Source: a virus
Taxonomy: Duplodnaviria > Heunggongvirae > Uroviricota > Caudoviricetes
Length of the DNA: 7,949 nucleotides
Virus record (IMG/VR): IMGVR_UViG_2695420523_000004
Direction: 5' to 3' (one strand)
Positions within the stretch are counted from its first letter, which is position 1; each line of letters begins with the position of its first letter. A program made the translations under genes and the position numbers. The notes below the pieces were generated by a model, which did not search any database, had not been told where the DNA came from, and saw nothing but the letters and a program-made list of their open reading frames with translations. Below, piece after piece: positions 2,450 to 7,949 of the stretch.

Positions 2450-2790
2450 CAGTGAGTGACCTCTTCAAAGGTACAGTTAAAATCGGTATACATGGCATTA
2501 TCCGAAATGCTCCACTCCCTGCAGACAACCCGGACAGTCCTGTTGTGTTTTGGCGGACGCCACAAAAAAGCACGAATCCCGGCATGACGGGATAAAAAAC
2601 TGTCCAGCGCGGCACGGGAATATTCATCTGTGACACGAAATACCGGTTTAAACGTTTTCAGATCCGCATTCAGACCACCAGCCCGTCGCTGTTCATATCC
2701 GTCACCAAACTTTACCGTAATAACTGATGGCTTTCGTGTCGTCTCCATCCCCTCACGGGGGATCCAGTTAAAAACTTCAGGCTCAGGCAC
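2449..2790 (-). CDS. M: Minor tail protein M
   Basis: Contains VKFGDGYEQR...FLWRPP, matching the lambda gpM pattern RFGDGYSQR...FLWTPP from memory. Preferred start is GTG at 2790-2788 with a GGAGGA Shine-Dalgarno 7 nt upstream, overlapping the H stop by 8 nt. Alternative ATG starts at 2805 or 2835 lack an SD. Confidence 0.82.
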   Translation of the reverse strand: MPEPEVFNWIPREGMETTRKPSVITVKFGDGYEQRRAGGLNADLKTFKPVFRVTDEYSRAALDSFLSRHAGIRAFLWRPPKHNRTVRVVCREWSISDNAMYTDFNCTFEEVTH

Positions 2791-5700
2791 TGTACAATCC
2801 TCCATCCCGACGCGATGACTGCATAATTGACACAACCCTGCTGTCGATCAGATCCACCAGTCCCCTGGCTGAGCGCGCATCTATCTCGCCATTGCTCCCT
2901 TGATTCTGAATGCTGATGTGATACACGGGAGAATAAACAACCCCCCCGCCACTATTCACATTGCCAATGGCTCTGACCCCAAGAGAGCCGTCCGCTGCCC
3001 GTGTCAGTGGCATGATAGCTTCAGGCCCGGCCTCGCCCATCAGCCCGGCACCTTTCGCAAAAGCAAAATACGTCGGTGTATCCACAATAGTGTTACTGTA
3101 AGCACTCAGATTTGCCGATGTGTAAACACCACCTTTTGCGTTTGCCACCGCCCCCGAAATCCATCCGCCGACCGTACCAAGCCACCCTCCGGCACCGGAG
3201 AGTGACTTCAGTCCGTTAACAATGGCCGCATTCATCAGAATTTTTGAAACTTCCCGGAGAACTGAACTCCCCCAGTTTCTCCAGTCCACAACATTTCCGG
3301 CCAGTGCATCGGAAATATTTGATACCAGTCCGTCCATAGTGGAAACGACAGCATCTGCCGCCTGCGAAGCATAATCGGTGGCACTGTCTGCCCAGTTGGT
3401 CAGCCCCTCCTGGAGTCCTGCATTCCAGTTATTACGTAAAGCATCGGCCTTTGCATAATAATCCTGCTGATCGCTGAGACGCTCTTCCAGATATTTTTTA
3501 TTCAGTTCTTTCTCCTGTTTCCACAGGGCTTCTTCAATTTCTCCGGCCTGATACTGTCTCAGAAGCTCGTTATTTTTCTGCTCAAACTCATGCCGGATAC
3601 TCCACATTTCCTGGAGTCGTTCACGCATCCGTGAGCCTTCACCATATCCCAGTAACTGCGCGTCGTCAGATGCCCGGGCACTGGCATTACTGTCCGCCAG
3701 GCTGCTTTCATACGCAGCAAGCTGCTCACGAATCTTTTTCTGGTCGATGAGTGCTGCATTCTGCAAAAGCGTTTTTTTCTGCGCTTCTGACAGGGTTGAT
3801 AATTCGCCCTGACTGACCTGATATTTCATCTTAGCCAGTTCAGTATTCTGCCCTGCCAGTGCTATTTGTTCTTTTTGCTGTTTAATCAGCCGTTTATAAA
3901 TATCTTCTGTTTTTTCCGCTTCGGTCTTTTTATGCGCTTTGGGTTTATTTGCCTGGTTATTTCGCCAGGCATCCAGTGAGTTATTGATATAATTCTGTCT
4001 GGCTGTCTGATACGCCTCTCCCACAAAGCCGAGATCATCCGCAGCATAACCCAGGCGGGCACGCTCACGGGCTTCCCCCTTCAGGCGGGACAGAGCCAGT
4101 TCGCGCTCGCTGTTATTCAGTGCAGTCTGCGGTTTATCATCCAGGGTTGCCTGTGGTAGCCGTAACGGTACATTCACCAGCCCCTGTCGCTGCTGAAGTA
4201 ATTCATTACCGAGCCCGAGAAGGCGATTAAACTCGGTATGCTGCCCATTCATGATCAACAGGGACTGATACGCTTTGTTTTGTTCCGCGGCCTGTTGACG
4301 GATCAACGCCACCCGTCGCTCCTCCAGCCCGGCAAGCACATCCTGAATGGATTGCGCTTTGCCCTGCATTTGTGTGAGACGGGACTGTTCAACTGCCAGT
4401 TGATTTGTTGCTTCTGCAAGCCCTTCTGTGACAGTTTTTACCGACGTCATGTGGTTAATCATAAAACCGTTATCGGTTGTCCAGCCCGGGTTTGCCAGCA
4501 CATACTGATAGCCAGCAATTTTTTCCTGTAAGGATTTAATCTTACTTTTCTGCTCGTCAATTAACCTGTTTTGCTCATCAAGTGCCTGCCGCGTCTTTTC
4601 CTCATTATCTGACGCTTCAGGAAGCGACATTGCCGACGTTTTCTGGCGAATTTCGTCGATTGTTGCGGCATACTGGCGTGCAGATTCTCTGGCCTGCTCC
4701 TGATTCTGATACATCGTGTACCAGGCCGTCGCCCCCAGCATGACGAGTCCCGGCACACCACCAACCAACCCCAGCGCACCACTTAACAGACGACTCCCCA
4801 CTGACGTGACAGTATTCAGCGTTGTCTGTGCCGCTGTTCTGGCCGCAATATTACGGGTAAGTGACGCCTGAGCAGCTGTCAGCTTCGCTTCTGCTGCGGC
4901 CTGCCTTTCGGTACCGCGAGCAGCAACAACCGCCTGTTGCGCACGATAAACCGCCGCACGCGCCCTGGCGGTTGCTATCTGTGTCCCCCGAAGTTGCGCT
5001 TCAGCAAGAGCCACTTCGTTTCTGGCTGCAGTAATTAATCCGGCAGTTGCAGATCCAGCAGACGACGCCATATTGCCAAAATATCGGGCTACCCCGACGG
5101 CAACCAGAGCACCGGCAGCGGTTGCCACGGTATCAATATTGCCTGCAAGACCATTCAGCACCCCGGAGAGCGTCTTCGTCACTCCGCTTGCCTCGTTCGC
5201 ACCACCAACCCAGGCCATAAAGGCGTTTTCAACTTTGGTTGCAGAGGATGAAACCGTATCAGGCATTGCTGCATATTCATCACGCAACGCCCCAAGCTGA
5301 CTAATCAGTGCAGGAACAACCTTATCGGCGGTTAGTTTTCCGTTATCCGCCATGGCCTTCAGATCCTTACGGGCAACGCCCATTCCCGCAGCCAGCGCAC
5401 GAATAACACGATCACCGCTCTCATTCACCGAGTTAAACTCTTCACCGCGCAGCACTCCCTGCGCCAGTGCCTGACTGAACTGCGTGATCACCGAACTGGC
5501 TTCTGCTGTACTGGCACCGGATAATTTCAGGCCCGTGGAGATCGCCTCGGTGACTTTCAGTACCTCCTCAGAACTGTAACCATACTCCCGCATGGAAGCT
5601 GCAGAACGGGCAAAAAGGCTGGCGTTATCAGAAAACGCCGTCCCCGTTCTCTGGCTGATCGCCATTAATTCACGTTGTGATACCTGAAAATCATCACTGG

Positions 5701-6016
5701 ACTGTGAGGCCTGCTTCAGACGGGCATTTACTGAATTCCACTCATCGGCGAGAGAAATAAGATGACCGGTAGCAAAAGCCCCGGCAAATGCCCCCGCCAT
5801 ATTCAGTGCCGAAGATTTAGCTGTATTTATCTGATCCGTCACTTCTGCCAGTGCACGCCGCATTTCACGGGATGCAGCAGCGGACTGCCGGCCTCCGTTC
5901 TGCATGGTACGGTAGTAATCCTGCCCCATACGCGAAGCCCGGGAGATCTCTGACTGGAATGACCGGGAATTTGCCGAGATTTTAATAATCAGTTCACGTA
6001 ATGTCGCCACACTCAT
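2783..6016 (-). CDS. H: Tail tape measure protein (gpH-like), 1077 aa
   Basis: Single long ORF between the G-T chaperone and M. Ala/Gln-rich, coiled-coil-like central region and a Gly-rich C-terminal part typical of tape measure proteins. Position is conserved in siphovirus tail operons. Confidence 0.92.
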   Translation of the reverse strand: MSVATLRELIIKISANSRSFQSEISRASRMGQDYYRTMQNGGRQSAAASREMRRALAEVTDQINTAKSSALNMAGAFAGAFATGHLISLADEWNSVNARLKQASQSSDDFQVSQRELMAISQRTGTAFSDNASLFARSAASMREYGYSSEEVLKVTEAISTGLKLSGASTAEASSVITQFSQALAQGVLRGEEFNSVNESGDRVIRALAAGMGVARKDLKAMADNGKLTADKVVPALISQLGALRDEYAAMPDTVSSSATKVENAFMAWVGGANEASGVTKTLSGVLNGLAGNIDTVATAAGALVAVGVARYFGNMASSAGSATAGLITAARNEVALAEAQLRGTQIATARARAAVYRAQQAVVAARGTERQAAAEAKLTAAQASLTRNIAARTAAQTTLNTVTSVGSRLLSGALGLVGGVPGLVMLGATAWYTMYQNQEQARESARQYAATIDEIRQKTSAMSLPEASDNEEKTRQALDEQNRLIDEQKSKIKSLQEKIAGYQYVLANPGWTTDNGFMINHMTSVKTVTEGLAEATNQLAVEQSRLTQMQGKAQSIQDVLAGLEERRVALIRQQAAEQNKAYQSLLIMNGQHTEFNRLLGLGNELLQQRQGLVNVPLRLPQATLDDKPQTALNNSERELALSRLKGEARERARLGYAADDLGFVGEAYQTARQNYINNSLDAWRNNQANKPKAHKKTEAEKTEDIYKRLIKQQKEQIALAGQNTELAKMKYQVSQGELSTLSEAQKKTLLQNAALIDQKKIREQLAAYESSLADSNASARASDDAQLLGYGEGSRMRERLQEMWSIRHEFEQKNNELLRQYQAGEIEEALWKQEKELNKKYLEERLSDQQDYYAKADALRNNWNAGLQEGLTNWADSATDYASQAADAVVSTMDGLVSNISDALAGNVVDWRNWGSSVLREVSKILMNAAIVNGLKSLSGAGGWLGTVGGWISGAVANAKGGVYTSANLSAYSNTIVDTPTYFAFAKGAGLMGEAGPEAIMPLTRAADGSLGVRAIGNVNSGGGVVYSPVYHISIQNQGSNGEIDARSARGLVDLIDSRVVSIMQSSRRDGGLYSA

Positions 6017-6026
6017 TCTCCGGACG

Positions 6027-6048
6027 AAAAAAAACCGCCGAAGCGGTT
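6027..6048 (-). terminator. Intercistronic hairpin (AACCGC-TTCG-GCGGTT) followed on the minus strand by a T6 tract, 10 nt upstream of the H start codon
   Basis: Inverted repeat at 6033-6038 and 6043-6048 with a UUCG tetraloop on the coding strand. A-run at 6027-6034 on plus gives the U-tract on minus. Lies in the 40 nt gap between the T stop (6057) and H ATG (6016). Confidence 0.35.
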
Positions 6049-6056
6049 ATGTTGAC

Positions 6057-6744
6057 TCACTGAGACACTATTAAAAGCGCGTTTTCCAGTCCGGCAAATG
6101 GATCTGAAGCGCCTTCTGTCTGCTCCTTCTCCCACTGAAGAAGCGCATCATTCAGTGACACTTTGACCCCCTGCGCACCGTAAACAGCTGAAACAATCTG
6201 GGCAGCCCGGAAATCAGCCCGTTCGTCCCCCAGCGGGCTGAACCTGTCAAATTCTGCCCACATCATGATTTCTGATGCGGACATTTCCCGGCGTAACTCT
6301 GACAATGTGCGCCCCATCCTGAGCGCCAGCATCATCAGAAAACGCATCCCCGGAAGCGCTACTTTTTTTTAACCTCGCCGGCATCACTGATCAGTTCCAG
6401 AGACTGCCGAAGAAGCCGCGCATGCACCGGGCCATACACGGCAATCACCTGTTCACGATCATCCTCTGAAAATACGGGTTGCAGTCCGGTATCACACAGA
6501 ACATCAATGAACAGTTCAACATCTGCCTCCAGATTTCGGCGGGCGCGCTCCGCAACGGATAACGGTGTCTCATCATCTTTTGCTTTAACGATCTCCTGCC
6601 AGCGCAACCAGGCTTCTGCAGAAGGTTCCCGTAACACAACCGTTGCTCCCTCCCATTCAGGCACATCAACGGTTTTATGGCGAAACCCCGACATCGTTGC
6701 CAGTGCCAGATTACGGATATTTTTAGTCATCACATCCATCCTCA

Positions 6745-6745: not shown

Positions 6746-7949
<1,204 letters not shown>

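What the first reader, a model, noticed from the sequence alone, without database searches (positions are those of the whole stretch)
6016..6057. Terminator-like hairpin with UUCG loop and U-tract between the chaperone genes and the tape measure gene
The 40 nt T-H spacer holds a GC stem with a UUCG tetraloop followed by six U residues on the coding strand. The H start codon has its GGAGA only 1 nt upstream, which is poor spacing. The tape measure protein is needed in a few copies per virion against hundreds of V, so a partial terminator or translational attenuator here would fit the required stoichiometry. It could also be an RNA-processing or stability element.
Basis: partly seen in the sequence, partly recalled or inferred. 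Interest (0 to 1): 0.5.

Follow-up and report, generated by a model that had tools for sequence, protein, structure and literature searches.

The report
Conserved terminator before tape measure gene
The hairpin is a real, conserved transcription-terminator motif at the spot in this prophage's tail genes where related phages carry extra host-benefit genes ("morons"); the spot is empty here, and the element is a known, ordinary kind.

Summary
The hairpin is real. On the coding (-) strand it reads AACCGC-UUCG-GCGGUU (6048-6033) followed by six more U (8 U in all, 6034-6027). It lies between the stop of tail chaperone gene T (TGA 6059-6057) and the tape measure gene. A strict scan finds only two such sites in the window, both intergenic on the coding strand; shuffles give 0.016.

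The "poor Shine-Dalgarno spacing" comes from the choice of start codon. Homologues begin M-A-T-L-R at the position of GTG 6010, and GGAGA lies 6 nt upstream of that GTG.

A GC hairpin plus T-run lies 14-24 nt before the tape measure start in 97 of 98 related loci from Escherichia, Klebsiella, Serratia, Pseudomonas and others. There are about 20 stem variants, some with compensatory changes, and the loops vary freely.

This is the junction where HK97 carries its gene 15 moron, and the HK97 record annotates a "putative terminator" there. About a third of relatives hold a low-GC cargo gene just upstream of the hairpin. This window has the empty version.

Close relatives are Q-antiterminated lambdoid phages, so I infer an insulator that stops non-antiterminated transcription and is read through in lytic growth. 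A stoichiometric partial terminator is not excluded, but lambda manages without one. It is a known kind of element and of low interest.

The parts
6033..6048 (-). Terminator stem-loop AACCGC-UUCG-GCGGUU (6 bp, cUUCGg tetraloop)
   Evidence: Sequence read. Folds at -8.5 kcal/mol, z -3.27. Listed by the scanner and by the strict scan. The same or an equivalent hairpin is present in 97 of 98 related loci.
6027..6034 (-). Run of 8 U; the first two pair in the stem and six trail it
   Evidence: The run is 7, 8 or 9 T long among close relatives, inferred from spacers of 45, 46 and 47 nt. A T-run is kept in nearly all distant relatives.
6017..6021 (-). Shine-Dalgarno GGAGA of the tape measure gene
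   Evidence: It lies 6 nt upstream of GTG 6010. The leader CG(Y)C(Y)GGAGA is shared with phage 2851, Leclercia and Pseudomonas loci.
6008..6010 (-). Probable true start codon (GTG) of the tape measure gene; ATG 6016-6014 is an in-frame upstream alternative
   Evidence: PGAP places the start here in a 100%-identical genome. Homologues have ATG at this position and begin M-A-T-L-R.
2783..6010 (-). Tail tape measure protein gene (1075 aa)
   Evidence: Pfam PF06120 (HK97 tail length tape measure) 7e-93, PF20155 and PF09718. ORF.
6057..6370 (-). T reading frame of the G-T chaperone fusion. The slippery run A AAA AAG is at about 6370-6362 and the stop TGA at 6059-6057
   Evidence: Pfam PF06223 Phage_tail_T 2e-19. 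Slippery run read. Stop read.
6359..6730 (-). Tail assembly chaperone gene (G-like)
   Evidence: Pfam PF06222 3e-58. PGAP start taken.
6018..6043 (-). Alternative hairpin CUUCGGCGG / UCG-UCCGGAG that would hide the SD. It excludes the terminator hairpin and is specific to this window type
   Evidence: -10.4 kcal/mol against -8.5 for the terminator hairpin. GGAG has an unpaired probability of 0.04 or less. It does not form in 19 representative relatives, including L014, which has the same hairpin and leader.
7467..7487 (-). Second terminator-like element, CCCGCC-GCU-GGCGGG plus U6, between the tail completion gene (stop 7511-7509) and the major tail gene (ATG 7449)
   Evidence: -11.3 kcal/mol. 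It sits at the same position as the 'putative terminator' 6692-6719 annotated in HK97 and HK75.

Best explanation
The element is a Rho-independent (intrinsic) transcription terminator on the late-gene strand. It sits immediately 5' of the ribosome-binding site of the tape measure gene.

It is the fixed right-hand border of a cargo slot between the chaperone gene T and the tape measure gene. Related phages carry moron cassettes in that slot (promoter plus a small low-GC gene). HK97 gene 15 is the founding example. In this window the slot is empty and only the terminator remains.

Proposed mechanism (inferred, not shown). RNA polymerase that has not been modified by the phage Q antiterminator stops at this site. 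Such polymerase would come from a moron promoter, from spurious or read-in transcription in the lysogen, or from early infection. The tape measure and distal tail genes therefore stay silent. After induction, Q-loaded polymerase coming from the late promoter reads through, and the tape measure gene is translated from its own GGAGA-N6-GUG site just downstream.

Shown here: the motif, its strand and position, its conservation, the slot, and a Q gene upstream in a close relative. Inferred: that it terminates, and when.
For: Motif and chance.
- GC stem, UUCG loop and U8, with z -3.27.
- Only two strict sites in the window, both intergenic on the coding strand, against 0.016 expected.

Conservation.
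- 97 of 98 loci have a hairpin plus T-tail ending 14-24 nt before the tape measure start, with about 20 distinct stems and free loops.
- 31-32 of 34 unique junctions score as terminators, against 18 of 1308 random windows from the same loci.
- The hairpin is present in Klebsiella, Phytobacter, Leclercia, Enterobacter, Brenneria, Serratia and Pseudomonas.
- In-register stems are 97% paired, with compensatory changes in 3 of 6 pairs; slid controls reach 51% at most.
- The U-tract is conserved. Termination needs it; protection from exonucleases does not.

The slot.
- 27 of 84 loci have a 288-526 nt insert, at 30-40% GC against 51-55% in the flanks. The inserts encode at least six families of small membrane, lipoprotein or secreted proteins, and all lie upstream of the hairpin.
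- Identity between the window and L014 breaks inside the last ~12 codons of T and resumes exactly at the base of the hairpin.

Prior annotation. The HK97, HK75, HK446 and HK106 records annotate a terminator here, after the gp15 moron. The moron definition includes its own promoter and terminator for expression from the repressed prophage (PMC3594210).

Antitermination. The relative vB_EcoS-813R8 has a Q gene (PF03589) followed by lysis, head and tail genes on one strand. Q forms a nozzle that precludes terminator hairpins (PMC9388147).
Against: - There are no transcript data for this or any homologous site. The Term-seq supplement of the EHEC paper and Cumby 2012 are not held.
- The window has no moron promoter and no significant promoter-like site upstream (4 found, 5.4 expected). 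What the terminator would stop here is therefore unspecified.
- The stem is short (6 bp, -8.5 kcal/mol), at the weak end of the family range of -6 to -19.
- Five of six independent empty-slot lineages keep a hairpin. This suggests a role that does not depend on a moron and could equally be a lytic-phase one.
Confidence: 0.55

Rival explanations
1. Partial terminator acting during lytic growth. A fraction of late transcripts ends after T. The genes needed in few copies per virion (H, M, L, K, I, J) would then receive less mRNA than the head genes, V and G.
For: The site separates high-copy from low-copy genes. The relative phage also has strong coding-strand terminators after the major capsid gene and before the major tail gene. 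This could give a stepwise fall in transcript level. The stem is weak (-8.5 kcal/mol), as expected for leaky termination. Empty-slot lineages keep the hairpin. The phage L genome paper lists partial termination as one possible role (PMC8022706).
Against: The late operon of the close relative is Q-dependent, and Q-loaded polymerase prevents terminator hairpins from forming (PMC9388147). Lambda and HK022 have the same stoichiometry problem without any T/H terminator. The terminator before the major tail gene V would lower V, which this logic does not call for.
Confidence: 0.2
2. RNA stability element. Q-modified polymerase passes the site, and the hairpin then forms in the long late mRNA. It blocks 3'-to-5' exonucleases after endonuclease cuts. 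The V-G-T segment, which is bracketed by the hairpins at 7487 and 6048, would then outlast the tape measure segment.
For: Two hairpins bracket V-G-T. A third follows the major capsid gene in the relative. The cUUCGg tetraloop is unusually stable (established knowledge). This role is compatible with Q antitermination.
Against: A conserved U-tract is not needed for exonuclease protection, yet it is kept almost everywhere. The UUCG loop itself is not conserved. There are no decay data.
Confidence: 0.15
3. Translational attenuator. In read-through mRNA the terminator hairpin refolds into CUUCGGCGG/UCG-UCCGGAG. This hides the Shine-Dalgarno sequence and lowers tape measure translation.
For: In this sequence the alternative hairpin is more stable (-10.4 against -8.5 kcal/mol) and leaves GGAG 4% or less unpaired.
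Against: It is not conserved. It forms in none of the 19 representative relatives, including L014, which has the identical hairpin and leader, and the GGUGA-type leaders cannot form it at all. Fold z-scores in context are about -0.8. The poor-spacing argument fails once GTG 6010 is taken as the start.
Confidence: 0.05
4. Functionless relic. A moron was deleted and its terminator was left behind. It persists only because the deletion is recent.
For: The window hairpin is identical to the one that follows the zinc-ribbon moron in L014 and is close to those in L077 and L089. The 56 empty-slot loci in the sample are all near-identical, so they are young. The Pantoea empty slot has a degraded U-tract, and one Pseudomonas empty slot has no hairpin.
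Against: Empty slots in distant lineages keep intact terminators with different stems: Stx-phage 2851 at about 70% nucleotide identity, Pseudomonas lundensis and Serratia. In P. lundensis the hairpin starts directly after the T stop, with no moron remnant. The T-run and leader are homologous from E. coli to Pseudomonas.
Confidence: 0.1

Closest known systems
Putative terminator downstream of the gene 15 moron of phage HK97 (NC_002167 8398-8422; also annotated in HK75, HK446 and HK106)
   Same: It lies at the same junction, between the T chaperone frame and the HK97-type tape measure gene. It has the same architecture: GC hairpin, T7-8, about 12 nt, then the start of M-A-T-L-R. The tape measure N-termini are 83-91% identical.
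   Different: HK97 has the YebO-like gene 15 and its promoter upstream. The window has nothing between the T stop and the hairpin except 8 nt. The stem differs (ACCCGCU/AGCGGGU against AACCGC/GCGGUU), as do the loop (AUCA against UUCG) and the leader (GGUGA-type against GGAGA-type).
Moron elements of lambdoid phages (Juhala et al. 2000, as summarised in PMC3594210)
   Same: Relatives carry promoter-gene-terminator cassettes of deviant GC content at exactly this site.
   Different: The window has no cargo gene and no promoter, so it is not itself a moron. The terminator and leader go with the tape measure gene as much as with the cargo: the same leader follows different cargo genes, and empty slots keep the hairpin.
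Intra-operon terminators in Q-dependent late operons (for example after the procapsid module of phage L and P22, PMC8022706)
   Same: These are intrinsic-terminator motifs inside a single antiterminated late operon, at module boundaries. Their role is undetermined. The relative phage has them after the capsid gene, before V and after T.
   Different: They belong to a different phage group and a different junction. No sequence homology is claimed.
T7 T-phi terminator after the major capsid gene 10 and the graded terminators of phiX174 (from my own knowledge, not checked here)
   Same: They are precedents for leaky terminators that lower mRNA for genes downstream of an abundant structural gene.
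   Different: Those systems have no processive antiterminator on the polymerase. Here, relatives use Q.

Membership tests
Rho-independent (intrinsic) terminator | GC-rich stem-loop on the transcribed strand | tested here: met
   AACCGC-UUCG-GCGGUU at -8.5 kcal/mol, z -3.27, on the coding strand only. The + strand has no T-tail.
Rho-independent (intrinsic) terminator | Uninterrupted U-tract immediately 3' of the stem | tested here: met
   8 U at 6034-6027. The tract is conserved in relatives.
Rho-independent (intrinsic) terminator | Non-coding location downstream of a stop codon | tested here: met
   It starts 8 nt after the T stop TGA 6059-6057 and ends 16 nt before GTG 6010.
Rho-independent (intrinsic) terminator | Structure, not sequence, maintained in relatives | tested here: met
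   About 20 stem variants in 97 of 98 loci. 97% of cells are paired, with compensatory changes in 3 of 6 pairs. That set was chosen as hairpins, so the count is descriptive.
Rho-independent (intrinsic) terminator | RNA 3' ends are produced at the U-tract | not testable with these tools
   No transcript data are held.
Moron element | Extra gene absent from related genomes, with deviant GC content | tested here: not met
   The window has a 46-nt spacer with no ORF. Relatives have 288-982 nt inserts at 30-40% GC.
Moron element | Own promoter | tested here: not met
   There is no promoter-like site in 6049-6056, and no excess of such sites in the window.
Moron element | Own terminator downstream | tested here: met
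   The hairpin is identical to the one that follows the zinc-ribbon moron of L014.
Transcription attenuator or riboswitch-like switch with alternative structures | A competing alternative structure conserved among relatives | tested here: not met
   The alternative hairpin exists only in the window-type sequence. Rfam gives no match in the window at E up to 1, apart from one chance snoRNA hit elsewhere.
Q-antiterminated lambdoid late operon (context) | Q gene and late genes co-oriented upstream of the site | tested here: met
   This was tested in a relative that is 99% identical at this locus, not in the window. In vB_EcoS-813R8, Q (PF03589, 1e-54) is followed by lysis, terminase, head and tail genes on one strand. 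The window itself holds only tail genes.

The most novel reading that the evidence does not exclude
The terminator may not be a passive moron leftover. It may be a selected, tape-measure-linked element, kept from Escherichia to Pseudomonas, with a role of its own in the lytic cycle. That role could be leaky termination or a decay barrier that sets the V/G/T to tape measure mRNA ratio despite Q. It could also be the recombination landing pad that makes this junction a hotspot for swapping cargo cassettes.
Probability: 0.15. Interest if true: 0.5.

Novelty: new member of a known kind. Interest (0 to 1): 0.22.

Why it matters
The finding mainly helps annotation.
- It fixes the start codon of the tape measure gene.
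- It marks the T/H junction of this prophage as an empty moron slot.
- It shows that the slot's terminator is kept across genera whether or not cargo is present.

The general question of what terminators inside antiterminated late operons are for is still open (PMC8022706). This well-conserved site, with occupied and empty natural variants, would be a convenient test case. It is not a new mechanism.

Tried and rejected
- Rfam scan of the whole window at E up to 1: nothing at the site.
- Folding in 61-nt and 151-nt contexts: no better than shuffles, and the minimum-energy fold replaces the terminator hairpin with an SD-hiding one. I followed this up as a possible attenuator and rejected it, because relatives do not share it.
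- Terminator on the + strand: rejected. The + strand has an A-run before the stem and no T-run after it.
- The promoter-like site at 6007-5979 inside the tape measure gene: not above chance.
- MAFFT alignment of 23 junctions (A2) put stems with unequal loops out of register, so its pair counts are uninformative. I redid the count with in-register hairpins, which are selected and so only descriptive.
- Literature. Cumby 2012 on gp15 is not held. The EHEC Term-seq paper has no supplements held. One literature search and one paper look-up failed on term syntax. The tail-assembly-interference and Tab papers concern other loci. Searches for transcript mapping of HK97-type late operons found nothing relevant.

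Full report
**1. The observation**

All genes in the window are on the - strand. The order is major tail gene, G-like chaperone, T frame, tape measure gene, then M/L/K/I-like genes.

After the T stop (TGA 6059-6057) the - strand reads GUCAACAU AACCGC UUCG GCGGUU UUUUUU CGUCC GGAGA AUG AGU GUG.
- The stem occupies 6048-6043 and 6038-6033.
- The loop is a cUUCGg tetraloop.
- The U run is 8 long (6034-6027).

The isolated hairpin folds at -8.5 kcal/mol, z -3.27. A strict definition (perfect stem of at least 6 bp with at least 4 GC pairs, then T6) finds only two sites in the window. One is this site. The other is at 7487-7467, between the tail completion gene and the major tail gene. Both are intergenic and on the coding strand. 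Dinucleotide shuffles give 0.016 sites per window. The hairpin is therefore real and not a chance match.

- PGAP starts the identical gene at GTG 6010.
- Every homologue begins M-A-T-L-R, with ATG at the position of that GTG.
- GGAGA then lies 6 nt upstream of the start.

**2. What it is**

The flanking genes are a Phage_TAC_1 chaperone, a Phage_tail_T frame reached through an A AAA AAG slippery run, and an HK97-type tape measure protein.

BLAST shows that HK75, HK446 and HK106 have a gene "similar to HK97 gp15" and an annotated terminator exactly between T and the tape measure gene. The HK97 record annotates "Gp15, moron product" and a "putative terminator" at 8398-8422, just before H. It also annotates terminators before and after the major tail gene. 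Gene 15 is the first moron ever described. [quoted passage not shown]

**3. Comparative evidence**

I collected 80 viral-contig loci, 18 loci from other species and several annotated phages.
- 97 of 98 loci with a recognisable tape measure start have a hairpin plus T-tail ending 14-24 nt upstream of it. There are about 20 stem variants. The loops include UUCG, UGAG, AGAA, AUCA, UGUGU, GUUAAU and ACU.
- 31-32 of 34 unique junctions score as terminators, against 18 of 1308 random windows from the same loci.
- The feature extends to Klebsiella, Phytobacter, Leclercia, Enterobacter, Brenneria, Serratia and several Pseudomonas species.
- In 17 in-register hairpins, 97% of cells pair and 3 of 6 pairs show compensatory changes. 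Slid controls reach 51% at most. This set was chosen as hairpins, so the count is descriptive only.
- The T-run and the leader (two types...CGYCYGGAGA... and ...AUKGGUGAAA...) are homologous across genera.
- The UUCG loop itself is not conserved.

**4. The slot**
- 56 loci have a T-to-tape-measure spacer of 45-47 nt, as in the window. The length differs only by the T-run.
- 27 loci have inserts of 288-526 nt.
- The inserts are 30-40% GC against 51-55% in the flanks. They encode at least six families: YebO-like gp15, a zinc-ribbon membrane protein, several lipoproteins and a Cys-rich secreted protein.
- The cargo always lies upstream of the hairpin.
- The window and L014 are nearly identical up to about 12 codons before the end of T. 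They then diverge, and L014 carries a 447-nt zinc-ribbon cassette. Identity resumes exactly at the first base of the hairpin.
- Empty slots with a hairpin occur in five of six independent lineages: the window type, Stx-phage 2851, Pseudomonas lundensis, Serratia, and Pantoea with a degraded U-tract. One Pseudomonas locus has none.

**5. Context for mechanism**

The relative vB_EcoS-813R8 is 99% identical at this locus. It is a lambdoid prophage with cI, cII, O and a Q antiterminator (PF03589). Lysis, terminase, HK97-type head and tail genes follow Q on one strand. Its late strand carries strong terminator motifs after Q, after the major capsid gene, before the major tail gene and after T.

Q-loaded polymerase forms a nozzle that precludes terminator hairpins (PMC9388147). 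I therefore expect read-through during lytic growth and termination only of polymerase that lacks Q. That is the classical reading of moron terminators.

Lambda has T and H overlapping by 8 nt and a U-V gap of 7 nt. HK022 has a 19-nt spacer with no hairpin. Both lack any such terminator, so tail protein stoichiometry does not require one.

The role of such intra-operon terminators has not been settled. The phage L genome paper states their roles "are not known" and offers either partial termination or stopping spurious non-antiterminated transcription (PMC8022706).

**6. The attenuator idea**

In this sequence an alternative hairpin, CUUCGGCGG/UCG-UCCGGAG (6043-6018), is more stable than the terminator hairpin (-10.4 against -8.5 kcal/mol) and buries GGAG. 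It does not form in the 19 representative relatives. These include L014, where an upstream A-run lengthens the terminator stem. There is no comparative support for it.

**7. Verdict**

This is an orthologue of an already annotated kind of element: the terminator that closes the T/H moron slot of HK97-type tail modules. Here the slot is empty.
- I have high confidence, about 0.9, in its identity as an intrinsic-terminator motif.
- Its working role is inferred and uncertain. An insulator against non-antiterminated transcription that Q reads through gets confidence 0.55. The rivals are leaky termination at 0.2, a decay barrier at 0.15, a relic at 0.1 and a translational switch at 0.05.
- No transcript data could be obtained.
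- Novelty: new member of a known kind. Interest is low.

Noticed in passing
window 7467-7487 (- strand): There is a second, stronger terminator-like hairpin, CCCGCC-GCU-GGCGGG plus U6 (-11.3 kcal/mol). It lies between the tail completion gene (stop 7511-7509) and the major tail gene, and is followed by AGGAGA and ATG 7449. It sits at the same position as an annotated HK97/HK75 terminator. Together with the 6048 hairpin it brackets V-G-T. The ORF list starts V at ATG 7500, which would run through the hairpin; PGAP uses 7449.
   Followed up: partly
window 6008-6016 (- strand): Two in-frame start candidates exist for the tape measure gene: ATG 6016 abutting GGAGA, and GTG 6010 six nt after it. 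Homology and PGAP favour GTG. Some close relatives have ATG at that position (GGAGAAUGAGAAUGGCG).
   Followed up: yes
window about 6362-6370 (- strand): The run A8-G (A AAA AAG) at the end of the G-like gene is the expected -1 slippery site for the G-T chaperone fusion.
   Followed up: no
loci L005-L084, 45-47 nt spacers: The T-run of the terminator is 7, 8 or 9 long among otherwise near-identical prophages (18, 34 and 4 loci). This looks like homopolymer slippage in a non-coding tract.
   Followed up: no
L001, L002, L014, L069, L073, L074, L087-L102 (the T/tape measure junction): The slot holds at least six unrelated families of small envelope proteins across Enterobacterales and Pseudomonas: YebO-like gp15, a zinc-ribbon membrane protein, several lipoproteins and a Cys-rich secreted protein. 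Only gp15 has a known role (superinfection exclusion). The others may be exclusion or defence genes linked to the tape measure allele.
   Followed up: partly
L105 8543-8562 (- strand in locus): The 99%-identical relative phage has a strong terminator motif (AGACCGCG-CCGA-CGCGGUUU plus U) directly after the major capsid gene, inside the Q-dependent late operon.
   Followed up: no
L004 (E. coli 203740, 100% identical over window 5700-6400): In this genome the prophage is damaged. An IS66 element interrupts the HK97-gp10-family head-tail gene, and an IS21-like element lies upstream of the head-tail connector gene. At least this copy is probably defective.
   Followed up: no
L094 (Leclercia) and L103 (Pseudomonas ulcerans): These are the only two junctions without a recognisable hairpin. 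L094 has a 534-nt insert with no clear coding-strand ORF. L103 has a 19-nt spacer.
   Followed up: no
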